Source: an uncultured Chitinophaga sp.
Lineage (GTDB): Bacteria; Bacteroidota; Bacteroidia; Bacteroidales; GCA-2748055
DNA length: 64,000 nucleotides
Assembly: GCA_964349045.1 (NCBI GenBank)
Contig: CAYGFI010000008.1
Span: 1,393-65,392 of the forward strand
Direction: 5' to 3'
The notes beneath the pieces are model-generated. The model saw only the letters and a list, made by a program, of their open reading frames with translations, searched no databases and was not told where the DNA came from. A program made the translations under genes and the position numbers. Numbering within the stretch: position 1 is the first letter of the stretch; every line of letters starts with the position of its first letter. This document shows positions 324 through 62,659 of this stretch, in pieces.

Positions 324-1601
324 ATGATCAGGACAAAGTTAATAAAAATAGCAAAGCGAATCAACCCATGTGGCGGAATCTACTTCGTCATAGATAGGGT
401 GAAAAAGATTGGCTTGTCTAAACTGATCGACCGTAGCTTTCCTGTTCGAGCCAAACAATCTAAATACAAATACAGCGATATTATTTTAGGCTGGTGCTTT
501 TCTATGATGTGCGGTGCCCAGCGCTTAGAAGACACCAAACAACTGAAAAATAATTTCATTGAAGATATTCCGGAAACAAAAATTCCTTCTCCTGATCGCA
601 TAGCATGGATCTTTAAAAAAATATCTATTCCATCTCATACCGTGCTGGGAGAGAAAGGCAGTGTAAACGAACTAAATATTAATTACCCGCTTAACCATCT
701 GCTTTTAAAATGCGCTGAAAAAATGAATTTTATTTCATCTGGGGTTGATTATACTCTTGACTATGATACTACACTTATTGCTACAAAGAAATTTGATAGT
801 AAAACCACTTACGAGCATTTTAAAGGATATAACCCCGGCGTGGCCTTTATTGGTAAAACACCAGTGTACATTGAAGGGCGCAATGGTAATACTTCGCCCT
901 CTTTTCAATTGCAGGAAAGTGTAATGAATGCGCTTGATCTACTGAAAGAAAAAGGAATTTCAATAAAACGTTTCCGCTGCGATGGAGCCGGATATCAGTT
1001 TGATTTGATGAAGGAATTATGTGAAAGAAATATTGAATTTTTTATCCGTGCCCGCAACTCTCATTTCTTGCTTGATGAAATTACACCACTCACATTATGG
1101 ACCGATGTAGAATTAAACGGCTACCGTTACCAGGTTGCAACAATAAGAACTCGTTTGTATAAAGGCGGGCCAATCTTTCGCGCTATTGTAAGCAGAAACA
1201 TTGATATTCCCTCTGACAAACTGAAAGATTATGTAGAAGAAGAATTTAATTGCAGGATTCTTATTACGAATAACACTTCAATGACTGCAGAAGAAGTTTT
1301 TAGGTTTTATAATCAGCGCGGATCTATTGAAAATAATTTTGCAAATCTTAAAAATGATTTCAACTGGAAGCGTTTACCTTTTTCATTCCTGCATGAGAAT
1401 ACTGTATTTATGATCTTGAGTGCAATTGCATACATGATATACCAGTACATTTTAAAAACGTTCAGCCAGAAAATAAATTTTGTAAATCAAAAAATGGAGC
1501 TTAAAAATTTCATCTTTCATTTTATTTCGGTTGCCTTAGAATGGGTAAAGGAGGGCCCTATAATTTACACCGACAAAAGCTATGAAAAGCTCTTGGAATA
1601 G
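324..1601 (+). CDS. DDE transposase, IS4/IS1380-like
   Basis: 425-aa ORF. C-terminal YNQRGSIENNFANLK fits the Y-x2-R-x3-E-x6-K signature of IS4-type DDE transposases. Plus-strand gene at the edge of a minus-strand array. IS termini not identified. Confidence 0.85.
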   Translation: MIRTKLIKIAKRINPCGGIYFVIDRVKKIGLSKLIDRSFPVRAKQSKYKYSDIILGWCFSMMCGAQRLEDTKQLKNNFIEDIPETKIPSPDRIAWIFKKISIPSHTVLGEKGSVNELNINYPLNHLLLKCAEKMNFISSGVDYTLDYDTTLIATKKFDSKTTYEHFKGYNPGVAFIGKTPVYIEGRNGNTSPSFQLQESVMNALDLLKEKGISIKRFRCDGAGYQFDLMKELCERNIEFFIRARNSHFLLDEITPLTLWTDVELNGYRYQVATIRTRLYKGGPIFRAIVSRNIDIPSDKLKDYVEEEFNCRILITNNTSMTAEEVFRFYNQRGSIENNFANLKNDFNWKRLPFSFLHENTVFMILSAIAYMIYQYILKTFSQKINFVNQKMELKNFIFHFISVALEWVKEGPIIYTDKSYEKLLE

Positions 1602-24850: not shown

Positions 24851-27800
24851 TTATTGTTCAGTTAACGCATACAGGATTTCCAGCGCTTCAACCGCCTCTT
24901 TTTTCTGTTTTCCCTTCAAATCCGGAAGGACCTGGGTAATTGTATTTATAGCTTCCTGCACTTCCACCCTGTCAAATCCCACACCCGAGCCTGAAAGCTC
25001 GCCAATAGGGTGTTCGCTCATTCCTTCTTTGTGGATAATATCAATACCATTTGTTGCGCAGCACCCGTTTTCAGGAATTGGGCAATTCTCCCGGTCCGTG
25101 TTGTCCGATAAATAACTGAGCAAATAATTTTTTTCGGCAAATTTTGCCACCTGTGTCATTAAATCGCCCCGAATTAACTTTTTTGCAGCAATTTCAGATT
25201 CTATTTCGCGCATAACCGATTCTTTATATTCATCTGTTTTCAGACTATCTAAATACCCGGATGCTTCTTTAAATCTTTTATCGGTATCGCGTTTTAGTTT
25301 TGTTAGACTATCATACCAGGCAATACCATAAGGGTTAAGAACTGATTTTTCAGCTTTTCGTACATGGGAATAATGATCAATCATGTTTTTATAATCCCAA
25401 TGGCTTACTGACCATATTTCGCCCTCATACTCTTCTGTTAATTGCTCTACCTTATACCCAAAGGTTGTCCTTTCGGGTTCCAGATAAAAAGTTTTTATAT
25501 CAAGGTCACGGCAAATTTTAAGAAGCAGCGGCATATCGCATTTATTAGTTGCTTCAAACTGTAAAAATTCTTTTGTAAGTAGATCAATCTTTTCCGAATA
25601 GTCTTTTATCCTGCCAAGAAATTTTGTTTCACTTTCTTTTTTTGCTAAGACCGTGACTTTCCCTTTCAACAACCCGGAATATTCAATCCATTTTTTTGAT
25701 TTATTCTTTAAATCTCCATATACTTCATCGCGAGATTCAATCAACTGTTCTATATGAGAATCAATTTTTGAAATGGTTTCTATGTTTTCCTGTATAATGG
25801 CTAAGGTGCGGGTTGCATCCTTTACAACTGTCTCATATTTAATCTTAAATTTTTCTTCCGGATCTTCAACCAGCTCGTATTTTATCTCTTGCGGGTCCAT
25901 ATCCGAATTATCAATTTCTTCAACGTTACTTTCCCCAATATTATGCCACAGGGATGCAATACGTTTAGACTTTTCATCCTGCTTTTGAAACACGAAATTA
26001 TCCATTGAATTTATTACCAGCGGCATAATAAACCGCACGTACCCGAATTTATTTCCCTGTCTCCATATCCGGCCCTTTAATTGGCGAATATCAGTGGGGT
26101 TCCATTCAGGAAAAAGATCATGAATACACGTACCGCGGGCCTGCAGGTTAATTCCTTCGCGGATAGTAGACGTTCCGATAATTACTTTTACAATGCCGGC
26201 GTTAAAAGCATCTTTAATTAATTCTTTTCTATCGTCTGCAGCTTCGCCTCCGCCACCAGAAATTATTTCTACTTCATCCAGCTTTTCATCGTCATAAATG
26301 AGCCCGCGTTTCATTTTAAGATCATCCAAAAGGAATTGTTTGATATACTCAAAGTATTTTTCTCCGCGATTTGAATAAATTACCTGACCAGAAAGTTCTT
26401 CGCCCCTGGCTTCGTGCCAGTCTTTTATTGTACGAATACACTCAACTGCAAATTTGATCTTTGGACTCTGGTTTACAAATTCTTCTGCACTGTCCGGCTC
26501 CTGATTAGCAAAAAGGAACGGGCTGAATGCATTGTTTAAACTCATAGCAATAGCACGGAATACCGCACCCCTGTTTTGCCGCGATATGGCCGCTGCAGTT
26601 GATTTTACAACTACCTGGTTTTTTTTCTGCCAATCGTTCATATCCAAATAGGTGTTTATACCAAGTTGCTTATTTGGATAATCAATTAAACAAGGTCGTA
26701 CAACGTTTGCCTCTTTTGGATTGTCTTTATAATCGAAATGATTATAAAGAATTGTTTGCAGCAACTTTAAATTCTGGAAGGATTTTATTACCGGTTTCGT
26801 TACAATTTCTCCTACGTTGTTAACCGCATATTCAACCGTTTCCAATATAAAATTCTCAAAGAATTTTTTAATGTTATACAAATTATAATAATTGAGCGTA
26901 TCAAGGCCAATATAGGAAAGCATTGAATACATTTCGAGCGGTGAATTTGAGAAAGGCGTTGCCGTAAGAAGTACAACGTTTTTACCAAACTTACGCTGCA
27001 AATATTGAGATACGAAAAACATTTTTACCGCTCTGGAAGAACGACTGGAAGAAATACCAAAAAGTTTTCTACCGGTTTCCGGATCTTTACCGCAGGATGC
27101 AAAAACATTTTTAAAATTATGCGCTTCATCGACCGTCATGTGATCAAACCCAACTTTATTGATTTGCACAATGGCGTTTTTATTACCAAGTCCTAACCAG
27201 CCTTGCGCTTCTTCGCGGAATTTTACTTCTTCTTTTTCGTCCGTAGCATCTTTTTGAGCGATTACGTTGTAAATTGCATTAAACAAATCGCCGCTTATTT
27301 CCCGGCCATATCCCATCTGTTCAAAACCTTTATAGCTGACAACTGTAATAGTATTTTCAGGAACTTCCTTATTAAAATCAACCTTGTTTTCTGAAATTAA
27401 ACGCTCGTAATGCTTACCAGATAAATTATACCAGTCATTAACTTTTATCTCAGTTCCGGAGAAAACCCCGTAATGATATTGCGCTCCCTGAAAATGGGTA
27501 AACTCTACTTTCTCCCCATCTGTCCAATATCCAAATAATTCTTTCAGCCAATTTTTATACGTTGGTTTTGGAACTACAATTAACGGACGTTTAATTTTTC
27601 CCTGACTCATTAACTGAGCGATATTTAAAATCGCTGTAAGCGTTTTTCCAAACCCTACATCGTAGGCAATGCAACCGGAACCTACTAACTGCAGAAAGGC
27701 AAGGCCGTGCCGCTGTGCATTTTTTATTCCCAATGCACCCTCTTTAAACATTGCGCTGCCTGCGTATGCAATAGGAATTTTATCGACAAACTGATTAATG

Positions 27801-30127
27801 GAGGTAAAGGCATTATATTTTTCGTTCCAAACCAAGTCAAGGCGCACTGAATCTTCAAAAGTCAATGCAACGGAAAGAAATTCAGAAAATAATTCTTCTG
27901 AAGCTAACCGGGCATTACCAATTAACTCTGCTTTTTCACTTGCACTTAACTCGTCGTTTCCGTCTGAATCTTTGGGCCAGCGGATTGATTTTGCCCAATA
28001 ATAAGTAGAAATATTGCTTTTGGTAGTATTTTTAAGATCGCTGTCTTTAACCGTTTCAGTGGTCCAAGCCTGAAAAGCCTCAAATAAAGAAACGGGCTCA
28101 GTTGCCGCCTGAAAACGGCCCCGTTTAGTTGCCCCAATTTTTACACCAGTAAGTTCATTTAACTCTAAAATACCAAAGTTTTCGGCTTCCATGCCAAAAG
28201 CAGAAAGGCTTAAAATATGGGGGCGGGCGGTTTTTATAGGATCTCGGAAAGTACGTTGCTTTGGTTTATAACCTTCTGCTATGGCCAGTTGTTTTTCATA
28301 AATTTCAACTCCGTATTTTTCAATTATCCGGGCCTCATTTGTTTTAAGTATATCGATTTTTTTATATATATCCCCGAAGTAAAATACAGGTACCGGAAAA
28401 TAATCGTCTCCATCAAAGATCAAAGCACCTTCTTTTACCAGGTTGTCAATTTCAGCTTTACTAGCGAGAGGTTTTGTTTTTGTTTCCTTAACGTCTTTTT
28501 TATTTACCCAGATCAGTTCATTGTTTTCTGTTCGGATAATTATATATGTTTCAGTTCCATACTGATTTTTGAACTTTGTCTTTTTTCCTAACGTAGTACC
28601 TGCAGGAACTAACCTGATATCAGCGTACTTATTATCTTTTAGCATTGTTTCCTTTGAGGTAATTATTACCTCTGAAACTTCTCCGGTACCAGCCAAATAA
28701 TATTTATTCCAGCCCTTCATCGGGTTCCCGAATTGCCGCTTATACCATACCCAGGCTTTTAATTCGCTCTCAGATATACCAGGATTATAGCGGGTAATGC
28801 TTTCTTCAATGGTAATGTTTTCCTTTTTTTCATCATCATCCAAAAGGTTATTGGCTTTTATAACCGCAAAATCTTGTTTAGTAATTTCAATTTCAGGAAC
28901 TACGGTTTCTGTGTTGTTTTTTTCTTGCTCAAAATCAGTTGGCGAGAGTCTTATAATTTCCTGTACTCTGTCACCAGAACAGCACCTTGCACTAATTTTT
29001 TTATCCCCTTCATAAAAATCATTTCGCACTTCTACCTCCATACCAGCCGTGGCATGTTTAGAAACATTTTTATTGAGTTTTAAAATAGTTCCTGCTTTTA
29101 TTAAAATCTTTGGTTCCATGTCGGTTCTTTCTTCTGGTTTGGCTTTTTGTTGCCACTTATTTTGCCACTCTTTATGTTTTTTGTCGTAATCCTCTTTTGA
29201 AATGCCGGTTAAGGGGCCTTCAAATTGCTCATTAACTTTTTCAGAAGTCATGCTTTTATAATTTATATTAAATGCATCAATTCTGTAAGCATACTCAGTT
29301 TCCAGATCAACAATTCTACGAATTATTCCATACCATGTTTCTTTTTCTGTGTCCCCTTGCTCATATTTTACATGATCATCAACCGCATAAAAAGCGGGAG
29401 CCCTTACTTCTTCTGGTTTCTTTTTAGAGGTTTTCATATTGAGCGCATTTTTTAATAAAACAGTTTCCTTATTATATTCAGGATCGATTAAAAAATCGTT
29501 TAAAACTTTTTTTGATATTTTTTTTCCAGCAATAACAGCTTCAACTATTTGTTTTAACTGATATTTCCAAAGTTCCCGTGAAAACATTTCCGGGGAAAAC
29601 TCTTTTTCTTTTTGAAGGTTTTTTGGAATATCGAACGCGAAATTTTGTGCTTCGTAATAATCCCCTACCTGCAAATCCCCGTTTATTTCTTTTGTTATTG
29701 CGTTTTTATGTAAAATGATATTTTTTTTAAACTCACTAAACGTCATTTCATAAATTTCTTTTTTAGTGGTAGGAATACCCTTTTCTTTTTCAGTTATGGC
29801 TGTTTGTAAAAACAAATTTATCTGATCAATAACCTGTTCAATAGTTCCTACCACCAAAACAGGATTTAAAAACCCGCTACCTGGTTTAATTGTGCCCGCA
29901 ACATGGCTGGGGTTTATCGCGAAGAAATTTGCGTTTGATATTTTTTCTAAATCCGTATCGGGACCAGTAATAAAAGTATAGTTGCCAAGAAACTGCACGT
30001 ATTCTACCAGAAGTTTTTCGGGAATAAAGCCATTGGAAAGAAGGCGTTTTGTTTCTTCGTCCCCCGAAGCGGTTGCCTCGTTTATTTTTTCATTTATGAA
30101 TTCGGTACGTGCCCTGTAACTTCCCAT
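24851..30127 (-). CDS. SNF2/DEAD-like helicase, 1758 aa
   Basis: Motif I VGFGKT, motif II VDEAHNFKN, motif III LLTATPFSNSPLEMY, motif V TSTIREGINLQ, motif VI QLKGRIWRQGN. About 800 aa at the N-terminus and 350 aa at the C-terminus are unassigned. Confidence 0.9.
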   Translation of the reverse strand: MGSYRARTEFINEKINEATASGDEETKRLLSNGFIPEKLLVEYVQFLGNYTFITGPDTDLEKISNANFFAINPSHVAGTIKPGSGFLNPVLVVGTIEQVIDQINLFLQTAITEKEKGIPTTKKEIYEMTFSEFKKNIILHKNAITKEINGDLQVGDYYEAQNFAFDIPKNLQKEKEFSPEMFSRELWKYQLKQIVEAVIAGKKISKKVLNDFLIDPEYNKETVLLKNALNMKTSKKKPEEVRAPAFYAVDDHVKYEQGDTEKETWYGIIRRIVDLETEYAYRIDAFNINYKSMTSEKVNEQFEGPLTGISKEDYDKKHKEWQNKWQQKAKPEERTDMEPKILIKAGTILKLNKNVSKHATAGMEVEVRNDFYEGDKKISARCCSGDRVQEIIRLSPTDFEQEKNNTETVVPEIEITKQDFAVIKANNLLDDDEKKENITIEESITRYNPGISESELKAWVWYKRQFGNPMKGWNKYYLAGTGEVSEVIITSKETMLKDNKYADIRLVPAGTTLGKKTKFKNQYGTETYIIIRTENNELIWVNKKDVKETKTKPLASKAEIDNLVKEGALIFDGDDYFPVPVFYFGDIYKKIDILKTNEARIIEKYGVEIYEKQLAIAEGYKPKQRTFRDPIKTARPHILSLSAFGMEAENFGILELNELTGVKIGATKRGRFQAATEPVSLFEAFQAWTTETVKDSDLKNTTKSNISTYYWAKSIRWPKDSDGNDELSASEKAELIGNARLASEELFSEFLSVALTFEDSVRLDLVWNEKYNAFTSINQFVDKIPIAYAGSAMFKEGALGIKNAQRHGLAFLQLVGSGCIAYDVGFGKTLTAILNIAQLMSQGKIKRPLIVVPKPTYKNWLKELFGYWTDGEKVEFTHFQGAQYHYGVFSGTEIKVNDWYNLSGKHYERLISENKVDFNKEVPENTITVVSYKGFEQMGYGREISGDLFNAIYNVIAQKDATDEKEEVKFREEAQGWLGLGNKNAIVQINKVGFDHMTVDEAHNFKNVFASCGKDPETGRKLFGISSSRSSRAVKMFFVSQYLQRKFGKNVVLLTATPFSNSPLEMYSMLSYIGLDTLNYYNLYNIKKFFENFILETVEYAVNNVGEIVTKPVIKSFQNLKLLQTILYNHFDYKDNPKEANVVRPCLIDYPNKQLGINTYLDMNDWQKKNQVVVKSTAAAISRQNRGAVFRAIAMSLNNAFSPFLFANQEPDSAEEFVNQSPKIKFAVECIRTIKDWHEARGEELSGQVIYSNRGEKYFEYIKQFLLDDLKMKRGLIYDDEKLDEVEIISGGGGEAADDRKELIKDAFNAGIVKVIIGTSTIREGINLQARGTCIHDLFPEWNPTDIRQLKGRIWRQGNKFGYVRFIMPLVINSMDNFVFQKQDEKSKRIASLWHNIGESNVEEIDNSDMDPQEIKYELVEDPEEKFKIKYETVVKDATRTLAIIQENIETISKIDSHIEQLIESRDEVYGDLKNKSKKWIEYSGLLKGKVTVLAKKESETKFLGRIKDYSEKIDLLTKEFLQFEATNKCDMPLLLKICRDLDIKTFYLEPERTTFGYKVEQLTEEYEGEIWSVSHWDYKNMIDHYSHVRKAEKSVLNPYGIAWYDSLTKLKRDTDKRFKEASGYLDSLKTDEYKESVMREIESEIAAKKLIRGDLMTQVAKFAEKNYLLSYLSDNTDRENCPIPENGCCATNGIDIIHKEGMSEHPIGELSGSGVGFDRVEVQEAINTITQVLPDLKGKQKKEAVEALEILYALTEQ

Positions 30128-31041: not shown

Positions 31042-32205
31042 TTATTTTTTTTTGAAGATTATTATATCCGTCCCTACGTCAGTTGTTGAAAAAACGCCAT
31101 TTGGTAATCGGAATGAGGTAATAAACTCCCCGATCTTTAAAATTTCTTCTTTCATGTTATTGTACATAGCCCCATTGTTCATAAAATTCTGAGAAACAAT
31201 ATAAACAAGGATGCCATCTTTTTTAAGAAGTTTTAAGCCTAAAAGTACAAACAAAAACTCAAAGCGTTTAAACGCCTTTGGCATGTAGCTCTTATAATAC
31301 CCCATATAATCACCATAAGGCGGGTTTCCGATTACCAGATCCATTTCAGGCAACCAGCTTTTCTTTATGGCTCTTGAGTAATTTGGAGCCTCCAAAAAAG
31401 CAGTTTCAAATTCCTGCTGGTAAAAAATATATCTTTCTGTGTCCGGGTATAATAATTTCGCGATTCGCAAATTAAGTGTGTCCGGATCAAACCCGTAGCA
31501 GGTTGCATTTTCCGGTGCAAACTTGAAAAACCGGCCAGTCCCACAGCTGGGCTCACACATAGTTAAATTTTCTCGGGGAACGCCCAGGCTAAAAGCAAGG
31601 TCCCACATTTTTTTTATTATGGGGTAGGGTGTGTAAAACTGGTGCAAAATTCCTTTATCAACAACTCCCTTAACGGAGCCCAACCCTTCATAAAGCTCTA
31701 ATGTGCCCCGCTGAAAGTCCGTTAACTTATTCGGGTTTTCCGATAATATTTCCTGAGTTTGGTTAGCAATAGATTCCCTCTGAGATTTTGAGAGCTTTGG
31801 GTATTTAGCGATCAAATCCTGATCAGTATTTAATTCTCCGGGGTCTGCGCTTTGTTCTAAGGCGCTCAATTCCTTTTCGTACTTCTGCATTTCCTGCAGA
31901 TACATTTCTTTAAGAGCTTTGCCGGCGGTTTTTATTGCCTCCTTTTTTTCGCTTATTGATCTTTTTAACTGCGAAATTCTTATTTCTTTGCCGCTTTTTA
32001 CAAATTGCATGCGGGTTTCAAACTCAGCTATTGGCACCCAATAAGCCGGAAATGTTTCAGAAGGTGTGGTAAAAGTTGGAATTACCCGGATATCAGTTGT
32101 TGAAAATTTAAGAACCTTTACCTGCCGGTTTTTCTGGCTGTCCTCAAAAACATCATCAATTTCTATTGTTTTCCCAAAATGGGTAGGTGAAGCCGGGTTT
32201 TTCAT
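31042..32205 (-). CDS. N6-adenine DNA methyltransferase
   Basis: AdoMet motif I CEPSCGTGRFF and catalytic motif IV VIGNPPYGDY. Confidence 0.85.
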   Translation of the reverse strand: MKNPASPTHFGKTIEIDDVFEDSQKNRQVKVLKFSTTDIRVIPTFTTPSETFPAYWVPIAEFETRMQFVKSGKEIRISQLKRSISEKKEAIKTAGKALKEMYLQEMQKYEKELSALEQSADPGELNTDQDLIAKYPKLSKSQRESIANQTQEILSENPNKLTDFQRGTLELYEGLGSVKGVVDKGILHQFYTPYPIIKKMWDLAFSLGVPRENLTMCEPSCGTGRFFKFAPENATCYGFDPDTLNLRIAKLLYPDTERYIFYQQEFETAFLEAPNYSRAIKKSWLPEMDLVIGNPPYGDYMGYYKSYMPKAFKRFEFLFVLLGLKLLKKDGILVYIVSQNFMNNGAMYNNMKEEILKIGEFITSFRLPNGVFSTTDVGTDIIIFKKK

Positions 32206-40690: not shown

Positions 40691-40783
40691 AATAAAGGGT
40701 TTTTTTTTGCTTCCTACGTTCCTTAATGGTTTGTTTTTATGCCCCCAGCCGTTTACTGGGGGCAGCTGTTACTATTGGAGTGG

Positions 40784-41410
40784 TTAATGATTATAGTTTT
40801 CTAAAAATTTCTTACCTGCATTCGAAATTACATAGCACTTCATTCCTTTATTATGCTTTGTGTCGTAATTCTTTTTTGAAGCGCGGATAAATTTCATTTT
40901 AAACAATTTGTTGAACTGAATTGTAGTTACCGGCTTGCTATCCAGTTTTTCAGTTACCTTTCTTTTAACTTTTTTATTCCAAAGAAGAAGGCAGGAACCT
41001 GTAGGATATTTTACAAGATCAACGTTCGGATATTTTTTATCGTCGTTCATTATCCTCAATATTTCAATCAGGTTTTTATCCCAGGGACGCTCCGTTGCTT
41101 TTTCGCTTTTATCGCGTAGCCTTCTAAAATTGAACAGCTCAGAATACTCAGGGTGCTCCTTTATGAAGATTCTGCTATACCTGGACGTGTACGCATCATT
41201 TATTTTGTAAACGTCTTTTGTTTTTACATCCAAACTGACCTCCCATCGCAACCAGCCAAGTAGCGTTTTAGAAGAAACCTTTTCGCGGCCTCTACGGATT
41301 GCCCGGAATATCTGTTCTTTGAACAAGAGGTAAACCTTTGGATTGTCCTTATGGAACTGCTTAAAAGCAGATTCTATTGATTTTTTATTAAACTCTGCGA
41401 ATGTTGCCAT
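40784..41410 (-). CDS. hypothetical protein
   Basis: 208-aa ORF. No reverse-transcriptase motifs, which matters for the adjacent RT remnant. Confidence 0.6.
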   Translation of the reverse strand: MATFAEFNKKSIESAFKQFHKDNPKVYLLFKEQIFRAIRRGREKVSSKTLLGWLRWEVSLDVKTKDVYKINDAYTSRYSRIFIKEHPEYSELFNFRRLRDKSEKATERPWDKNLIEILRIMNDDKKYPNVDLVKYPTGSCLLLWNKKVKRKVTEKLDSKPVTTIQFNKLFKMKFIRASKKNYDTKHNKGMKCYVISNAGKKFLENYNH

Positions 41411-41424
41411 CTTTTATGTAGGTT

Positions 41425-41652
41425 TTAAATTTTTACACTTTTTACTTCGCTTATCAGTAAACAGAATTTCCCATCTTCTTCGCCTTTATATGGAAATAGT
41501 CTTTTACCATCAGCACGTTTATACCATTGCATAGTACCATCTGGTTTACGAGGTTCCGTTTTAATAATTTGAGTGCCGTTGGGTAATTCTTTTAACCATG
41601 GGGAATTTTTTACAAAAAATTTGTAAGTATCATTATTAATCTCAGGTGCCAA
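41425..41652 (-). CDS. doubtful ORF downstream of the RT remnant
   Basis: The ORF-track start is a TTG codon, and the only internal Met leaves 35 aa. Confidence 0.25.
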   Translation of the reverse strand: MAPEINNDTYKFFVKNSPWLKELPNGTQIIKTEPRKPDGTMQWYKRADGKRLFPYKGEEDGKFCLLISEVKSVKI

Positions 41653-41966
41653 TACAGCCCCATCACATTGGTAAACATTTTCTCCAAATGAATCATTATC
41701 GCATGGTGTGCAATTCTATCAGGCCAGTAAGGGAGCATAGATACAATTCTTTCTTTAGGCTCCCTTACGATAAATGTTTTATACGCAGAAGTTTTGTAGG
41801 TTTTGTTTTTTAGCATTAATGAAAGCTGAAACAATTTGGGTTCCGGATCTTTATCGAACTCCAAAATACCAGGCTGGCCGCTCTTGTGCCTACGCGCATT
41901 TGTATCTGCCAGTTGCAAATTTTCAATGCTGTAGATTTTATGGTATGTGTCTCTCAATCTTTTCAT
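41610..41966 (-). pseudogene. DGR-type reverse transcriptase, N-terminal fragment only
   Basis: YSIENLQLA, FIVREPKERIVS and PDRIAHHAIMIHLEKMF match the first ~95 aa of DGR RTs (the Bordetella phage Brt pattern ENL..A / EPKxR / DRxxxHA). The frame then decays, and no YxDD-bearing ORF follows. Confidence 0.75.
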
Positions 41967-42088
41967 TTTGCCTTTGTAAAAAAGTCGCGGCCATTCCCTT
42001 AATGGGAACTACTAACGCCTTGATTAACTTATCGCTATTTTTTGCCTTGCTGGCAAGGTTTGTGTTACTATTTTTTTTATACAAAGAT

Positions 42089-42158
42089 GCGGCCTGACAT
42101 TCGTATTCGTATGATCGTAGTTCGTATTCGCATTGTCGAACCTGAACCCTGAGGGGCG
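42089..42158 (-). repeat. DGR template repeat (TR)
   Basis: 70 nt, non-coding, Asn-codon (AAT/AAC) rich. Differs from the three VRs almost only at its adenines. Confidence 0.85.
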
Positions 42159-42197
42159 AAGCCCTACCCACTATACGTAACACACAACCCCATTATT

Positions 42198-42611
42198 TTA
42201 AAGTACCATATCCTCGCATTCCTTACGGAAATGCTTAAATACGAAATGGCATTGCTCAGAGGTGCCCATTACAAGGCGCGGCCCGACAGCCGTATGCGTA
42301 AGATCGTAGCGCGTAAACGCAAAGCCGAACCCGAACCCCGAGGGGCGGGTTTTATCGGTTTTTAGCCAATACCAAAGGCTGTATTTATCCTGAGTATTGC
42401 CGGTTACAAAGGTTGGGACAAAACCCATAATCTTGTTTATTGCCTTTATAACCGTCATTAGCTTGTAACGGGCTACCAGGTCTTTTGCAAAATCCTTTTC
42501 CAGCCCCTTAACAATTGGGAGCTTTTTAGGATCTTTTTTGAGGAACTTGCATGCCAAAGCAAATGTTGTAAATTGCTTGTATGCATCCGGTGAAATTTGT
42601 TTTTTGCTCAT
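42198..42611 (-). CDS. DGR target protein 1
   Basis: 137 aa. Carries VR1, encoding PSGFGFGFAFTRYDLTHTAVGPR. No signal peptide or TM segment. Confidence 0.8.
   Translation of the reverse strand: MSKKQISPDAYKQFTTFALACKFLKKDPKKLPIVKGLEKDFAKDLVARYKLMTVIKAINKIMGFVPTFVTGNTQDKYSLWYWLKTDKTRPSGFGFGFAFTRYDLTHTAVGPRLVMGTSEQCHFVFKHFRKECEDMVL
42278..42347 (-). repeat. DGR variable repeat VR1
   Basis: 14 differences from the TR, all at TR adenines. Confidence 0.85.
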
Positions 42612-42642
42612 TTTGGTTGGTTTTGAATTAGTTGGTTTTAAA

Positions 42643-43038
42643 TTATTCGCTCAAAAATTCTATGTAAATTTTACTTAATTCAGGATGTTTGCAGAACCAT
42701 TCGCAAATTTCTTCATCCAAAAATTCAAGGCGCGGCCCGACAAACGTATACGTACGAACGTAGCCCGCATTCGCACCGTCGAACCCGAACCCCGAGGGGC
42801 CTTTTATAAACCACGGAAACCATTTTTCCTGCATACCGTTGTTATGGTCAACCTTTCCCTTGCCGCCATTAAACAGGCGGGTTGTAAGCGTTATCTTTTT
42901 AAACGCATTGTGAGAAATTTCGTCCGAATCCTTTGGGTCCGGATATGGCAAACATTTTACCGGATCAACACCACATGCAGCGGCTATATCCTCCCAGCTA
43001 TTAATGCTGGCTTTGAGTTTTTTTACTGATTCTGTCAT
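42643..43038 (-). CDS. DGR target protein 2
   Basis: 131 aa, paralog of target 3. Carries VR2, encoding PSGFGFDGANAGYVRTYTFVGPR. Confidence 0.8.
   Translation of the reverse strand: MTESVKKLKASINSWEDIAAACGVDPVKCLPYPDPKDSDEISHNAFKKITLTTRLFNGGKGKVDHNNGMQEKWFPWFIKGPSGFGFDGANAGYVRTYTFVGPRLEFLDEEICEWFCKHPELSKIYIEFLSE
42732..42800 (-). repeat. DGR variable repeat VR2
   Basis: 13 differences from the TR, all at TR adenines. Confidence 0.85.
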
Positions 43039-43079
43039 AGATTTTGGTTTTTTATATTGATAGTTAAATTGATTTATTT

Positions 43080-43625
43080 TTACTCGGAATAATACTGGTT
43101 ATACATTTCCTGAAAAAATGGTTTCTTCATAAGTGCAAGGAATATTTCTCTGTCCAAAAATTCAAGGCGCGGCCCGACATACGTATGCGTACGATCGTCG
43201 TACGTACTCGCAGCGCCGAACCCGAACCCCGAGGGGCCTTTCTTCATCCATGCCCAGGTTCTACGTTGTTGCGGGTTGCTATAATCTACTTTTCCACGAC
43301 CGCCGTTAAATAAGCGGCTGGTGTGTTGAATCTTCCAGCCGGCGTTACAGGAAATTTCATCTATGGTCTGTGGATTAGGAAAAGGCAGGCAATTAACCGG
43401 GTGTAAACTCTGTTCTGCAGCTACATCATCCCAGCTATTAATGCGGTCTATTAATTTAAGGGAGAAGAAATCTTTCCCGTAGTTTTCTTCCAAAACAGCT
43501 TTAAATTCAGCATCGGCGGTTGGGTAAAGTTTTCTGGCTAATGCATCAGAAATAGTAAGGGGCTTTTTTTCGGTGTTCATGCTTTTTTTGATTAGTTTAT
43601 AGATGATTTTTTCAAAGATATTCAT
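43080..43625 (-). CDS. DGR target protein 3
   Basis: 181 aa. Carries VR3, encoding PSGFGFGAASTYDDRTHTYVGPR. Confidence 0.8.
   Translation of the reverse strand: MNIFEKIIYKLIKKSMNTEKKPLTISDALARKLYPTADAEFKAVLEENYGKDFFSLKLIDRINSWDDVAAEQSLHPVNCLPFPNPQTIDEISCNAGWKIQHTSRLFNGGRGKVDYSNPQQRRTWAWMKKGPSGFGFGAASTYDDRTHTYVGPRLEFLDREIFLALMKKPFFQEMYNQYYSE
43169..43237 (-). repeat. DGR variable repeat VR3
   Basis: 12 differences from the TR: 11 at TR adenines and one at a T. Confidence 0.85.
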
Positions 43626-43633
43626 TTTAATAA

Positions 43634-43715
43634 GTTAATTTAAAAGTGAATTGAAGTTAATTTAAAAATGAATTGCAATATGTGGCTAAAAAAATAGTTA
43701 ATTTAAAAGTGAATT
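43634..43715. promoter_or_regulatory. three copies of a 19-bp motif, GTTAATTTAAAAGTGAATT
   Basis: Copies at 43634-43652, 43656-43674 (one mismatch) and 43697-43715, directly upstream of the start of DGR target 3. Confidence 0.5.
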
Positions 43716-43798
43716 GCTTTTATCTGATCTTCAATAGGTTTAATGGTTTCGGTGGAATAACACCCCAAATATATTAATTTCATTTTATTAATTGGCTT

Positions 43799-44866
43799 TC
43801 ATAAAAATATTCCGTGTTTTTTAAGTAAATCTAAAAATGCTATTTCTGCAGTCTGTTCAACAACTCCATTTCCTTCCATCCGAAGAAGATCCTCTCTAAA
43901 GTTGTACCCATTAATTGTGCAACCCATATTGGAGATAAGACGGGCCGCTTCCCAATCATATTGTTCTTGCCCTGGTCTGGCAGGCCATCTTTTTCTTCTA
44001 CCATTGCACATAAATATTTCCGGTCCAACATGTGTTTCTGTGATTTGGAACCTTTTGGGCCCATTCCCTTGTATTCCGAGCTCCGGGGTGTAGGCCACCC
44101 CCCCCCCCCTTGATCCTCCAGAAATTCTACTTGGCCCTGTAACCCCATGTCCTTGCCCCGTTTCAATCTGGTTTTGTAACTCTCCTGACCTCCGACCCTT
44201 GGTGTTGACCAGTTCATTTGAATTGCCTGCGGTAAATTTACTGAGTGCATTGAGCCTTCCTTTTGTTGGGAAGATTTCATTGAATCCGGATGTTTGTCTG
44301 AAACTTTCGGGGAAGGCCAATTTATCAATCGCAAGGATGAATAATCTTTTTCTCTGGTGTGGTGCGCCAGCTTCTTCCGCTGAGTATATTCCTGCTTCAA
44401 CTGAGTAGCCCAAATCTGATAGGTCTTTGTAAACCTGGTCAAATCCCATTGTAATGTGTCCGATAACGTTTTCGAAGAAGCACCAAACAGGTCGAATTGT
44501 TCCAACTGGCTTATGTATATACGGCCAAAGGTGTCTGGGATCTTCTGCTCCTTTTCGTTTTCCAGCCTGGCTAAATGGCTGGCAGGGATAACCGCCAATG
44601 ATTCCGTGTATTTTTCTGTGAAATGGTTCTGGGATGAAGGTTTTAAGATTCGCCCAAATAGGTGCGGAATCCAATAAACCTTTTTCCATAAGCGAGACAA
44701 GGTTTTCAATGATAAAGGCTTCGATTTCCACATAAGCTGCAACCCGGATTTTTCCAATAGCTCGTTCGATTCCTCTTTCGATTCCACACATTCCGCTGCA
44801 TAAGCTGAGTACAACGGGTGATTTGAAGGCACTATCCACATTATTATTGTTTTTTATAAGGTCCAT
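43799..44866 (-). CDS. DNA (cytosine-5)-methyltransferase (frame A)
   Basis: Motif I LSLCSGMCG, IV GGYPCQPFSQAG, VI FFENV, VIII QRKRLFILA, and C-terminal GNGVVEQTAEIAF (motif X-like). The central ~115 aa is Gly-rich and atypical. Confidence 0.8.
   Translation of the reverse strand: MDLIKNNNNVDSAFKSPVVLSLCSGMCGIERGIERAIGKIRVAAYVEIEAFIIENLVSLMEKGLLDSAPIWANLKTFIPEPFHRKIHGIIGGYPCQPFSQAGKRKGAEDPRHLWPYIHKPVGTIRPVWCFFENVIGHITMGFDQVYKDLSDLGYSVEAGIYSAEEAGAPHQRKRLFILAIDKLAFPESFRQTSGFNEIFPTKGRLNALSKFTAGNSNELVNTKGRRSGELQNQIETGQGHGVTGPSRISGGSRGGGVAYTPELGIQGNGPKRFQITETHVGPEIFMCNGRRKRWPARPGQEQYDWEAARLISNMGCTINGYNFREDLLRMEGNGVVEQTAEIAFLDLLKKHGIFL
43840..44841 (-). CDS. second open frame (+1 relative to frame A) carrying methyltransferase-like motifs
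   Basis: 333 codons with no stop, on the same strand. Contains NWPSPKVSD, NWSTPRVGG, GWPTPRSSEYKG and LSPIWVAQLMG, which resemble the WPTPxxxD repeats and LNPxFVEWLMG motif of phage-type C5 methyltransferases. Confidence 0.4.
   Translation of the reverse strand: MWIVPSNHPLYSAYAAECVESKEESNELLEKSGLQLMWKSKPLSLKTLSRLWKKVYWIPHLFGRILKPSSQNHFTEKYTESLAVIPASHLARLENEKEQKIPDTFGRIYISQLEQFDLFGASSKTLSDTLQWDLTRFTKTYQIWATQLKQEYTQRKKLAHHTREKDYSSLRLINWPSPKVSDKHPDSMKSSQQKEGSMHSVNLPQAIQMNWSTPRVGGQESYKTRLKRGKDMGLQGQVEFLEDQGGGGWPTPRSSEYKGMGPKGSKSQKHMLDRKYLCAMVEEKDGLPDQGKNNMIGKRPVLSPIWVAQLMGTTLERIFFGWKEMELLNRLQK
44098..44109. repeat. homopolymer C12 (G12 on the coding strand)
   Basis: Twelve consecutive C, read as GGGG in both open frames of the methyltransferase locus. 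Confidence 0.95.
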
Positions 44867-45177
44867 TTTTCAAAAGCAGGTTCAAAATTTATTTTTTCTT
44901 TTTCTCCATCTACCAACGCCTGCAGGTTTGGGTATTCCTTTGTATAAATTGCAAGAGGTGTAACGCTGGGATCAATTCCGTTTATTGAAAAAATAATTTT
45001 TTCATTTGGCGATTTTATTTCTGCAAGCCCCTCTCCGTTTATCTGGTAACAATAAAGTTTATCCCCTTTTTTTTCTTTTGTGAATTCATGGCAACCATTT
45101 CCAGCTGCCGTGTATTGAAACCCGCATAATCCTAAGAACCTACGGATATCAGCCGCAATTTTAATTTGTTGTTTCAT
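44854..45177 (-). CDS. hypothetical protein
   Basis: 107-aa ORF in the packed array. Confidence 0.6.
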   Translation of the reverse strand: MKQQIKIAADIRRFLGLCGFQYTAAGNGCHEFTKEKKGDKLYCYQINGEGLAEIKSPNEKIIFSINGIDPSVTPLAIYTKEYPNLQALVDGEKEKINFEPAFEKWTL

Positions 45178-62057: not shown

Positions 62058-62151
62058 GTTAATTTAAAAGTGAATTTAAAAAAGTTTTAAACAGCCGCCG
62101 CAGAAATTCCTTCTTTTTCCAAAATATCAGAAGTTAATTTAAAAGTGAATT
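62058..62151. promoter_or_regulatory. two more copies of GTTAATTTAAAAGTGAATT
   Basis: Exact copies at 62058-62076 (intergenic, upstream of 61505-62023) and at 62133-62151 (inside the 3' end of 62087-62659). Confidence 0.5.
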
Positions 62152-62659
62152 CCTGCAGGCTTTCAAGTGTGGGAGAAATGCGGCCTACCCCGAAAATATG
62201 TAGGGGTATATAGCTGGCCTCTGGGTGCAATATCATGGCCTTTGCAGCCTCAATATCAAGGCCACTTTTAAATAAAAAGGCCATATCAAAGGCTGGAATT
62301 TTTAAGCGCCATGCCGTGATAATTTCAAATATTGCGCCTAGGCTATTTTCGTAGCCTGGAAGCATGAATATAAGGCCACATGAGGCCAGTTCTTTTAAGT
62401 CTTTTCTCATAGCCTCATGCCACCACGGAATTTCTGGGTTATGGCCTGAATTTTTATTTTGTACTGGGTTAATCACATGCGGGTTTATTGGCGTTAGGCC
62501 CATATCGCGCAGGAACGTTTCAGCGGCGGTAAAAGCTGGCCTATTCAAATCTTCAATGCCTGTTATTGGACCGCATATATAAGCCCGATTGCTGGCTGTG
62601 CGTACAATATCTGTTTTGTAGGGGCCGGTGTAAAACACGGAGGTCATAATTGCGCTCAT
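62087..62659 (-). CDS. DUF4406 / nucleoside 2-deoxyribosyltransferase-like protein
   Basis: AYICGPITGIEDLNRPAFTAAETFLRDMGLTPINP resembles the YISGPMTG...N...F..A...L...G..v.NP pattern of that family. Confidence 0.6.
   Translation of the reverse strand: MSAIMTSVFYTGPYKTDIVRTASNRAYICGPITGIEDLNRPAFTAAETFLRDMGLTPINPHVINPVQNKNSGHNPEIPWWHEAMRKDLKELASCGLIFMLPGYENSLGAIFEIITAWRLKIPAFDMAFLFKSGLDIEAAKAMILHPEASYIPLHIFGVGRISPTLESLQEFTFKLTSDILEKEGISAAAV

What the first reader, a model, noticed from the sequence alone, without database searches (positions are those of the whole stretch)
41610..43625. Diversity-generating retroelement with three tandem small cytoplasmic-looking targets and a truncated reverse transcriptase
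A 70-nt template repeat (TR, 42089-42158, minus strand) lies between an RT-like ORF and three consecutive paralogous genes. Each gene carries a 69-70-nt copy: VR1 42278-42347, VR2 42732-42800, VR3 43169-43237.

Aligned by hand in coding orientation, the VRs differ from the TR at 14, 13 and 12 positions. 38 of the 39 differences fall on the 20 adenines of the TR, which is rich in AAT/AAC codons. The one exception is TAC to GAC in VR3. This is the adenine-specific mutagenesis signature of DGRs. The 3' ends keep a GC-rich GGGCCGCGCC(TT) in the VRs versus AGGCCGCATC in the TR, which is IMH-like.

Three things are unusual:
1. One TR serves three targets.
2. The targets are small (131-181 aa), with no signal peptide or TM segment. 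The VR codes PSGFGF-x(n)-T-x-T-x-VGPR and is followed by 25-28 more residues. They sit among early/DNA-metabolism genes rather than being tail-fibre or C-type-lectin receptor binders.
3. The RT ORF (41610-41966) matches only the first ~95 aa of DGR RTs (ENL..A, EPKxR, DRxxHHA). It then decays with no YxDD region downstream, and I see no Avd-like gene.

Either this is a recently inactivated DGR with frozen VRs, or it is served in trans.
Basis: partly seen in the sequence, partly recalled or inferred. Interest (0 to 1): 0.85.

Follow-up and report, generated by a model that had tools for sequence, protein, structure and literature searches.

The report
Disabled phage DGR, three small targets
This phage carries a diversity-generating retroelement that once rewrote three small neighbouring genes at adenine-templated positions, but a deletion has removed most of its reverse transcriptase; it belongs to a large, uncharacterised class of Bacteroidota-phage elements whose small targets do not resemble the usual C-type-lectin scaffold.

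Summary
A 73-nt template repeat (TR, 42084-42156, minus strand) has three copies (VRs) in three tandem paralogous genes. Of 45 TR-to-VR differences, 41 fall on TR adenines. With those adenines masked, the pattern matches only these four sites in 64 kb.

The RT gene is truncated. Only residues 1-102 of a roughly 315-342 aa DGR-type RT remain, and no other RT sequence exists in about 68 of the 69.3 kb of this phage contig. Independent assemblies are identical here, so this is not an assembly error.

About 120 related loci from viral contigs and Bacteroidota genomes define a conserved DGR class. It consists of 1-3 tandem small targets, the TR, a structured spacer RNA (Rfam RT-17), a full RT and a conserved ~100-aa ORF. 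There is no Avd. The window keeps the targets, TR and spacer RNA intact but has lost the RT catalytic part and the ~100-aa ORF.

Three targets per TR is normal for this class, and RT loss recurs in relatives.

The most interesting result concerns the target family (more than 5,000 sequence clusters, no Pfam). Two AlphaFold models match no solved structure and no C-type lectin, and the genes sit among early and DNA-metabolism genes.

Best reading: a recently inactivated DGR with frozen VRs. Service in trans is not excluded.

The parts
43634..43716 (-). Three copies of a 20-nt motif (CAATTCAYTTTTAAATTAAC) just upstream of the first target gene. This is possibly the regulatory region of the target-TR operon. 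Membership in the element is inferred, not shown.
   Evidence: (D2) and 98: six matches in the window against 0.12 expected. Three lie here and two at 62058-62152(-).
43080..43625 (-). Target gene 3 (181 aa), carrying VR3 at 43164-43236. 25 codons follow the VR core.
   Evidence: It belongs to the target family (profile hit) and is 52% identical to target 2.
42643..43038 (-). Target gene 2 (131 aa), carrying VR2 at 42727-42799.
   Evidence: AF2 model: pLDDT 79.4, pTM 0.76. No PDB fold match. N-terminal part matches phrog_11581.
42198..42611 (-). Target gene 1 (137 aa), carrying VR1 at 42273-42345.
   Evidence: Matches phrog_11581. The exact protein is present in 7 contigs from several samples.
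42084..42156 (-). Template repeat (TR), non-coding, with 21 adenines in 73 nt. Its 3' end GTCAGGCCGCATCTT (42084-42098) is the IMH* counterpart of the VR 3' ends GTCGGGCCGCGCCTT.
   Evidence: Relatives carry their TR at the same position relative to the RT.
41964..42083 (-). [quoted passage not shown] All 10 consensus base pairs are intact in the window.
   Evidence: RF03020, 24.8 bits, E 0.078, full model length, at 41964-42060; relative L033 scores 57 bits against a gathering score of 40.4 at the same position; 94.9% of cells paired versus 36-48% in slid controls, and covariation score 0.634 versus at most 0.13.
41610..41966 (-). Reverse-transcriptase stub (118-aa ORF). Only 41661-41966 (residues 1-102) is RT-derived, and the last 16 codons are unrelated sequence. 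The GxxxSQ and YADD catalytic regions are missing.
   Evidence: The truncation is identical in independent assemblies L008-L011 and L101.

Best explanation
The locus is a recently disabled diversity-generating retroelement of a widespread Bacteroidota-phage class.

How the intact class is built (seen in relatives): an operon encodes 1-3 tandem small soluble proteins, each with a ~73-85-nt variable region. These are followed by a non-coding template repeat, a ~95-nt structured spacer RNA (Rfam RT-17), a ~315-340-aa DGR-type reverse transcriptase with IGxxxSQ and YADD motifs, and a conserved ~100-aa ORF (phrog_19665) in place of Avd.

How it works, by analogy with the BPP-1 DGR (inferred): the TR-spacer RNA is reverse-transcribed with random misincorporation opposite adenines. 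The cDNA then replaces each VR, directed by the GC-rich 3' element that differs between the VRs (GGGCCGCGCC) and the TR (AGGCCGCATC).

What is shown in the window: the products of that process are present as three VRs that differ from the TR almost only at adenines. The TR and spacer RNA are intact.

What has been lost: a deletion or replacement starting after RT codon ~102 removed the catalytic two-thirds of the RT and the ~100-aa ORF. The element therefore cannot diversify on its own, and the three VRs are frozen alleles (inferred).

Target function: the targets are most likely non-structural, intracellular binding proteins made early in infection. The VR would form an exposed hairpin or loop on a helical scaffold. 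Their ligand is unknown. A role in host takeover or counter-defence is a guess from gene neighbourhood only.
For: - TR/VR adenine signature: 41 of 45 differences on TR adenines, p down to 5e-10. The A-masked pattern is unique to the four sites.
- Only one non-A, non-IMH mismatch in about 150 comparisons, which points to recent homing.
- RT stub: residues 1-102 only. No other RT sequence in the window or in a further 4 kb of the same 69,274-nt contig.
- The stub is homologous to Brt and to PHROG and PADLOC RT models.
- The truncation and the VRs are identical in assemblies from several runs. The only two SNPs seen lie outside the element.
- Class definition: 70 of 83 viral loci and 27 of 38 Bacteroidota genome loci have a full RT directly after 1-3 targets and a TR, with 9-21 adenine mismatches and 0-2 non-adenine mismatches in clearly detected TR-VR pairs next to a full RT.
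- phrog_19665 ORF directly after the RT in 60 of 70 loci, absent from the window.
- A relative's RT is 33% identical to Brt over its full length, E 3e-48, with IGNYLSQ and YADD.
- Spacer RNA covariation, and all 10 pairs kept in the window.
- Other decayed copies: L059, L132, L138, L037, L030.
Against: - No reads were available, so polymorphism within a population at the VRs could not be measured. Consensus assemblies could hide ongoing diversification.
- The assemblies compared have near-consecutive accession numbers and may come from one study, so identical VRs are weak evidence of freezing. L001 and L002, which have an intact RT, also share identical VRs.
- About 1.2 kb of the 69.3-kb contig was not seen, and whether that contig is the whole genome is unknown.
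- The intact TR and intact spacer RNA are what a trans-served element would also look like.
- Mechanistic steps (priming, homing, the role of phrog_19665) are inferred from BPP-1 and not shown for this class.
- The VR part of both protein models has low confidence (pLDDT about 50-63).
Confidence: 0.8

Rival explanations
1. The element is still active and is served in trans. An RT (plus accessory protein) of the same class, encoded by a co-infecting phage or by a prophage in the Bacteroidota host, recognises the window's intact TR-spacer RNA and keeps rewriting the three VRs.
For: - The TR shows no decay at non-adenine positions.
- The RT-17-like spacer keeps all 10 covarying pairs.
- This DGR class is common in Bacteroidota genomes and phages, so co-residence is plausible.
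- DGRs of this class do act on remote targets about 5 kb away (L003, L029).
Against: - VRs are identical in every assembly of this phage that was seen.
- The closest RT in 5.8 billion proteins is only 59% identical to the stub.
- No contig in IMG/VR or JGI metagenomes carries this TR pattern.
- Spacer sequences differ between relatives, so cross-recognition is uncertain.
- Recent deletion explains the intact TR equally well.
Confidence: 0.12
2. This is not a retroelement. The four copies are ordinary paralogous or gene-converted repeats, and the RT-like ORF is coincidental.
For: The three genes are true paralogs. VR2 and VR3 also share about 11 nt beyond the core.
Against: - 91% of differences fall on the adenines of the single non-coding copy.
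- Similarity between the TR and the genes is confined to 73 nt.
- The same architecture with an intact DGR-type RT is seen in about 100 related loci.
Confidence: 0.01
3. The RT truncation is an assembly or sequencing artefact, or the RT is completed by recoding or from a second piece elsewhere, as with the frameshifted Quimbyvirus RT.
For: Split or frameshifted DGR RTs exist: L138 and L105, and Quimbyvirus (PMC8008677).
Against: - Five or more independent contigs from Logan and ENA assemblies are 100% identical across the breakpoint.
- Six-frame tblastn with full RTs at E<=10 finds no further RT-like segment in the window or in 4 kb of flanks.
Confidence: 0.03

Closest known systems
Bordetella phage BPP-1 DGR (mtd-avd-TR-brt)
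   Same: - Adenine-specific TR-to-VR differences.
- A non-coding TR just upstream of the RT.
- A GC-rich 3' element that differs between VR and TR (IMH versus IMH*).
- RT homology: a relative's RT is 33% identical to Brt (E 3e-48), and the window stub is 34% identical over residues 2-91.
[quoted passage not shown] In BPP-1 this is Rfam RT-10 (PMC5737381); here it is RT-17.
   Different: - No Avd. Instead an unrelated ~100-aa ORF follows the RT.
- Two or three tandem small targets rather than one tail-fibre protein.
- The target profile is unrelated to Mtd (hhalign probability 0.15%) and shows no C-type-lectin fold by Foldseek.
- The VR is followed by 25-28 more codons.
- In the window the RT is truncated.
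Quimbyvirus ('Quimbyviridae') DGR of Bacteroides phages (Benler et al. 2021, PMC8008677)
   Same: It is a Bacteroidota phage DGR. One of its targets is non-structural and sits among methyltransferase, nuclease and counter-defence genes. Its RT gene has an irregular structure.
   Different: The Quimbyvirus targets contain C-type-lectin domains. Its RT is complete (three overlapping frames) and shows signs of activity. Here the targets are ~135-aa proteins with no detectable lectin fold, and the RT lacks its catalytic part.
Incomplete DGR cassettes of crAss-like phages (PMC11054128)
   Same: The RT gene is fragmented or deleted in some genomes while the target and VR persist. This is interpreted as loss of retrohoming. 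The window's RT stub also has DNA-level similarity to crAss-like phage RT genes.
   Different: Those targets are receptor-binding proteins with a lectin fold (closest to TaqVP). The window's targets are a different, unannotated family.
Rfam RF03020 (RT-17 RNA motif; Weinberg et al. 2017, PMC5737381)
   Same: The TR-to-RT spacer of this DGR class matches RT-17 over the full model length. L033 scores 57 bits. The motif was described only as 'found near RT genes'.
   Different: The window copy scores 24.8 bits, below the gathering score of 40.4. Its assignment rests on the class-specific alignment and covariation. A role in DGR priming is inferred, not shown.

Membership tests
Diversity-generating retroelement (DGR) | TR/VR repeat pair in which nearly all mismatches (commonly 75% or more) lie at TR adenines | tested here: met
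   41 of 45 (91%) over three VRs. Fisher p 1e-6 to 5e-10. The A-masked pattern is unique to the four sites.
Diversity-generating retroelement (DGR) | Intact DGR-clade reverse transcriptase (fingers and palm domains, GxxxSQ motif, YxDD active site) near the TR | tested here: not met
   Only residues 1-102 remain, and no further RT sequence exists in any frame. Relatives have the full RT with IGNYLSQ and YADD, 33% identical to Brt. The window element is therefore a DGR remnant, not a complete DGR.
Diversity-generating retroelement (DGR) | GC-rich IMH at the 3' end of each VR, with a diverged IMH* in the TR | tested here: met
   All three VRs have GTCGGGCCGCGCCTT against GTCAGGCCGCATCTT in the TR. 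L001 and L002 show the same pattern. This is a sequence test only; the function could not be tested.
Diversity-generating retroelement (DGR) | Accessory variability determinant (Avd) or another accessory gene. This feature is frequent but not universal. | tested here: not met
   There is no Avd-like ORF in the window or in relatives. The class instead has phrog_19665 after the RT (60 of 70 loci). It has no similarity to Avd and is absent from the window.
Diversity-generating retroelement (DGR) | VR embedded in a C-type-lectin-fold domain of the target | tested here: not met
   Two AF2 models (pTM 0.76 and 0.75) have no PDB match (best E 3.7 and 5.0, TM at most 0.26). Profile against Mtd gives probability 0.15%. 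No Pfam, NCBIfam or PDB sequence hit. Caveat: the VR segment of each model has low pLDDT.
Diversity-generating retroelement (DGR) | Ongoing diversification of VRs in populations | tested here: inconclusive
   VRs are identical in all assemblies of this phage. No reads could be mapped, and the samples may be related.
Rfam RT-17 RNA (RF03020) | Score at or above the curated gathering threshold (40.4 bits) | tested here: not met
   The window scores 24.8 bits, E 0.078, over the full model. Relative L033 scores 57 bits.
Rfam RT-17 RNA (RF03020) | Conserved secondary structure supported by covariation, located next to an RT gene | tested here: met
   In 45 spacers, 10 pairs are 94.9% paired (36-48% when slid), and 0 of 500 shuffles reach the observed value. 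The window keeps 10 of 10 pairs.
Target family (phrog_11581-like small proteins) | Profile match over the whole ~135-aa domain, including the invariant SGFGF...VG(S/P)RL frame of the VR | tested here: met
   All three window proteins match the family profile over positions 5-135. Invariant G83, G85, F86, G101 and L104 are present.

The most novel reading that the evidence does not exclude
The three genes belong to a new scaffold for DGR hypervariation that is not a C-type lectin. It would be a ~135-aa soluble helical protein that displays the VR as a hairpin or loop, made early in infection inside the Bacteroidota host. There it would act as a diversified binder of variable host factors, for example in counter-defence, rather than as a receptor-binding virion protein. 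The class would also have its own accessory protein (phrog_19665) and priming RNA (RT-17) in place of Avd and RT-10.
Probability: 0.3. Interest if true: 0.8.

Novelty: new variant of a known kind. Interest (0 to 1): 0.6.

Why it matters
DGR variable regions with a recognisable fold have so far been C-type lectins (PMC8144416), and phage DGR targets are mostly tail proteins.

This locus points to a very large, unannotated family. It has more than 5,000 clusters at 90% identity, and about 120 loci were inspected. The family consists of compact soluble DGR targets with no detectable lectin fold, encoded next to DNA-metabolism and methyltransferase genes in Bacteroidota phages and prophages.

If the fold and the intracellular role are confirmed, three things follow:
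- The range of protein scaffolds known to tolerate DGR mutagenesis would widen.
- It would give an example of phage-side hypervariation aimed at something other than adsorption.
- It would provide a small scaffold of interest for engineered diversification.

The work also gives a biological context to the orphan Rfam motif RT-17, as the TR-proximal RNA of this DGR class.

The window's own copy shows how such elements die: the RT goes first, while the TR, the RNA and the targets remain intact.

Tried and rejected
- Ordinary paralogy: rejected by the base-specific substitution table and by the sharp limits of similarity.
- Assembly artefact: rejected by identical independent contigs.
- A second RT piece, a frameshift or an RT elsewhere: six-frame tblastn at E<=10 over the window and 4 kb of extra contig found only noise.
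- Extra remote VRs in the window: none.
- Same TR in IMG/VR or JGI metagenomes: no match.
- Closer full-length RT relatives: none above 59% identity.
- Window target protein (tblastn) and the 40700-44900 region (blastn) against GenBank phages: no target or locus match, only a short RT-gene similarity to crAss-like phages and a methylase hit. A typical family member does hit distant, RT-less homologs in the Bacteroides phages Versailles and LoVEphage and in Phocaeicola phage PV4-TP1.
- Pfam, NCBIfam, PADLOC and PDB sequence searches of the targets: nothing.
- C-type-lectin membership: not supported.
- The 75-aa ORF after the stub (41425-41652): no homolog found, so the origin of the replacing DNA and the exact deletion mechanism remain unknown.
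- Sigma-70 promoter and terminator scan: not above background for promoters, so uninformative.
- Contig fragmentation near the VRs in some samples was considered as a sign of hypervariability. The same samples fragment all over the genome, so it was dismissed.
Full report
**Observation**

On the minus strand, window 41610-43625 holds three consecutive genes of 181, 131 and 137 aa. These are followed by a non-coding stretch and a 118-aa ORF.

In an ungapped register, a 73-nt core is shared by the non-coding copy and one copy in each gene. The non-coding copy is the TR at 42084-42156. The gene copies are VR1 42273-42345, VR2 42727-42799 and VR3 43164-43236.

The VRs differ from the TR at 16, 15 and 14 positions, and 41 of these 45 differences fall on the 21 TR adenines. 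The exceptions are a T->C shared by all VRs inside the GC-rich 3' element and one T->G in VR3. Fisher p per VR ranges from 1e-6 to 5e-10.

With the adenines masked as N, the 68-nt pattern matches only these four sites in 64 kb, against a chance expectation of 0.00. Read in the frame of the genes, 20 of the 21 adenines occupy codon positions 1 or 2.

Similarity between the TR and the genes ends at the core. The three proteins are only 26-52% identical to each other. This is the DGR signature and not ordinary paralogy.

**The reverse transcriptase**

The 118-aa ORF (41610-41966) matches the PHROG RT family phrog_1423 (E 1.6e-23). It also matches BPP-1 Brt (34% identity, E 3e-11) and full-length RTs of related viral contigs (54-56% identity). 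In every case the match covers only the ORF's first 91-102 residues. After codon ~102 (window ~41661) the sequence is unrelated and stops 16 codons later.

tblastn with complete relatives' RTs at E<=10 finds no other RT-like segment in any frame of the window. It finds none in 3,065 + 972 nt of additional sequence from the same 69,274-nt contig either. About 1.2 kb of that contig was not seen.

Contigs of the same phage from other Logan and ENA assemblies are 100% identical across the TR, the VRs and the breakpoint. The only two SNPs found lie at 40833 and 40836, outside the element. The truncation is therefore real and fixed in the sampled populations.

**What the element belongs to**

Searches with the RT stub and then with a profile of the targets retrieved 83 viral loci and 38 loci in bacterial genomes. 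The bacterial genomes are all Bacteroidota except one Ignavibacteria.

Their layout is highly uniform: one to three tandem genes of the same small-protein family, a TR of 70-88 nt with 17-28 adenines, a spacer of ~100 nt, and a full RT of ~315-340 aa. Seventy viral and 27 genomic loci have the full RT. In clearly detected TR-VR pairs next to a full RT, the VRs differ from the TR at 9-21 adenines and at only 0-2 other positions. Nine genomic loci and several viral ones have three tandem targets. Some have an additional target about 5 kb away (L003, L029).

A relative's RT is 33% identical to Brt over its whole length (E 3e-48) and carries IGNYLSQ and YADD.

No locus has Avd. Instead, 60 of the 70 viral loci with a full RT have a conserved ~100-aa ORF (phrog_19665) directly after the RT. 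It has no Pfam or NCBIfam match and no similarity to Avd. The window has no copy of it.

**The spacer RNA**

[quoted passage not shown] In relative L033 the same position scores above the gathering threshold (57 bits).

An alignment of 45 spacers yields 10 consensus pairs, all with compensatory changes. 94.9% of cells are paired, against 36-48% when the partners are slid. The covariation score is 0.634, against at most 0.13 in the slid controls, and 0 of 500 shuffles reach the observed values. The window sequence keeps all ten pairs.

Weinberg et al. (PMC5737381) described RT-1 to RT-19 only as motifs near RT genes. They placed RT-10 between the TR and brt in BPP-1 and suggested a priming role. 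RT-17 occupies the same position in this class. The priming role is inferred.

**State of the window's copy**

The targets are open and the TR is undecayed, with one non-adenine, non-IMH mismatch in about 150 comparisons. The spacer RNA is intact and the first 102 RT codons carry no stop or frameshift. The catalytic part of the RT and the phrog_19665 ORF are gone. They are replaced by a 75-aa ORF with no detectable homolog.

This combination fits a recent deletion. RT loss is recurrent in the class:
- L059: RT ends at ~residue 180, with a clean adenine signature for its first VR.
- L132: stub of ~50 residues.
- L138: RT split into two ORFs.
- L037: TR present, no RT.
- L030: decayed TR, no RT.
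- Several loci have targets only.

Fragmented or deleted RTs are also reported in epsilon crAss-like DGR cassettes (PMC11054128).

The alternative is that a related RT from a co-resident phage or prophage still serves this TR. That cannot be excluded without reads. Against it, the VRs are identical in all assemblies, no RT closer than 59% identity exists in the protein database, and no other contig carries this TR pattern.

Four TR adenines (42150, 42143, 42095, 42088) are G in all three VRs. Two lie in the IMH-like element. Two lie near the 5' edge, in or next to the family-invariant Gly codons of SGFGF. The same pattern is seen in L001 and L002. This fits limits of information transfer together with purifying selection, but that explanation is inferred.

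**The targets**

A profile search finds 5,385 proteins (90%-identity clusters) at E<=1e-3. Most are 131-139 aa and some are ~280 aa (twice the usual length). None has a Pfam domain. The window proteins have no Pfam, NCBIfam, PADLOC or PDB sequence match. They hit only phrog_11581, of unknown function. None has a hydrophobic segment.

Two AlphaFold2 models were built, one of the window's 131-aa protein and one of a typical member (P0097). They have pLDDT 79-81 and pTM 0.75-0.76. Both show N-terminal helices, a VR segment modelled as a hairpin or loop with low confidence, and two C-terminal helices.

Foldseek finds no solved structure for either model (best E 3.7 and 5.0, TM at most 0.26). A profile comparison with Mtd gives probability 0.15%. 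The only structural neighbours are uncharacterised phage proteins, including some from crAss-like viruses.

The genes lie in a block of small early and DNA-metabolism genes. Neighbours include a C5 DNA methyltransferase, a DUF87 ATPase, HTH proteins and an Rv2179c-like exonuclease. The block lies about 18 kb or more away from tail-like genes.

The context is similar in relatives. L001 and L003 have nuclease- and helicase-like neighbours. RT-less homologs in Bacteroides phages Versailles and LoVEphage sit among recombination, replication, Lar-like and methyltransferase genes.

A non-structural DGR target in a defence-related island has a precedent in Quimbyvirus, but that target is a C-type lectin (PMC8008677). 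Roux et al. state that VR regions with a recognisable fold are systematically C-type lectins and that uncharacterised ones may be new variants of that fold (PMC8144416). Whether this family is a cryptic lectin variant or a new scaffold needs an experimental structure.

**Verdict**

The locus is a DGR remnant: three adenine-mutagenised targets, an intact TR and TR-proximal RNA, and an RT cut down to its first ~100 residues with no Avd.

'Three targets' and 'truncated RT' are ordinary for this class. The value lies in the class itself, which has small, apparently non-lectin, non-structural targets, a distinct conserved ORF in place of Avd, and the RT-17 RNA. As far as the searched literature shows, this class has not been described.

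Noticed in passing
window 324-1601 (+): A 425-aa DDE transposase (Pfam DDE_Tnp_1_4 / DDE_Tnp_1) lies on the opposite strand to almost all other genes. It looks like an IS element sitting in the phage genome near one end of the window, and it is present in all assemblies of this phage.
   Followed up: partly
window 44098-44109, inside 43799-44866 (-): A 12-nt homopolymer (C12 on the plus strand, G12 in the gene) lies inside the C5 DNA-methyltransferase gene. A second long ORF (43840-44841, 333 aa) overlaps that gene in another frame on the same strand. This could be a slipped-strand phase-variation site. At present the methylase frame is open through the motif-X-like GNGVV.
   Followed up: partly
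window 43634-43716 (-) and 62058-62152 (-): The 20-nt motif CAATTCAYTTTTAAATTAAC occurs three times just upstream of the first DGR target gene and twice in another intergenic region about 18 kb away. That is 6 matches against 0.12 expected. It looks like a phage-specific operator or promoter element shared by two early regions.
   Followed up: partly
L001 6947-7249, L003 6945-7250, and 60 of 70 related loci: A conserved ~100-aa ORF (phrog_19665, no Pfam or NCBIfam match, unrelated to Avd) overlaps the RT stop codon throughout this DGR class. It is a candidate new DGR accessory protein and is missing from the window.
   Followed up: partly
L065 1-1500: A contig end carries three VR-bearing target genes with TR-like pieces between the targets (TR 297-378, and a second TR-like piece near 877). 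There is no RT in the 4.4 kb downstream. The VRs still differ from the TR at 9-15 adenines and at no other base. The arrangement is odd and unexplained.
   Followed up: no
L003 370-451 and L029 605-694: An additional, remote VR-bearing target of the same family lies about 4-5.4 kb upstream of the main cassette. It has a clean adenine signature (15-17 adenine mismatches, 0 others), so this DGR class can act on non-adjacent targets.
   Followed up: partly
L105 6001-6960; L138 3961-4915; L106-L108: Other irregular RT genes occur among relatives of the stub. One RT is split into 75-aa and 232-aa ORFs (L105), and one is split into two halves (L138). A 134-aa RT fragment has three independent contigs that all end 21-22 nt after its stop (L106-L108).
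   Followed up: no
window 24851-30127 (-) and 31042-32205 (-): A 1,758-aa protein and a 387-aa protein match DarB-like antirestriction, methyltransferase and helicase PHROGs. Together with the C5 methylase, they suggest the phage invests heavily in anti-restriction functions.
   Followed up: no
L098 (Bacteroides phage Versailles ON453897.1, 10181-10762): A distant, RT-less homolog of the target family is annotated 'tail protein' in GenBank. It lies inside the recombination and replication module (SbcC, NinB, replisome organiser), so the label is probably an over-annotation.
   Followed up: partly
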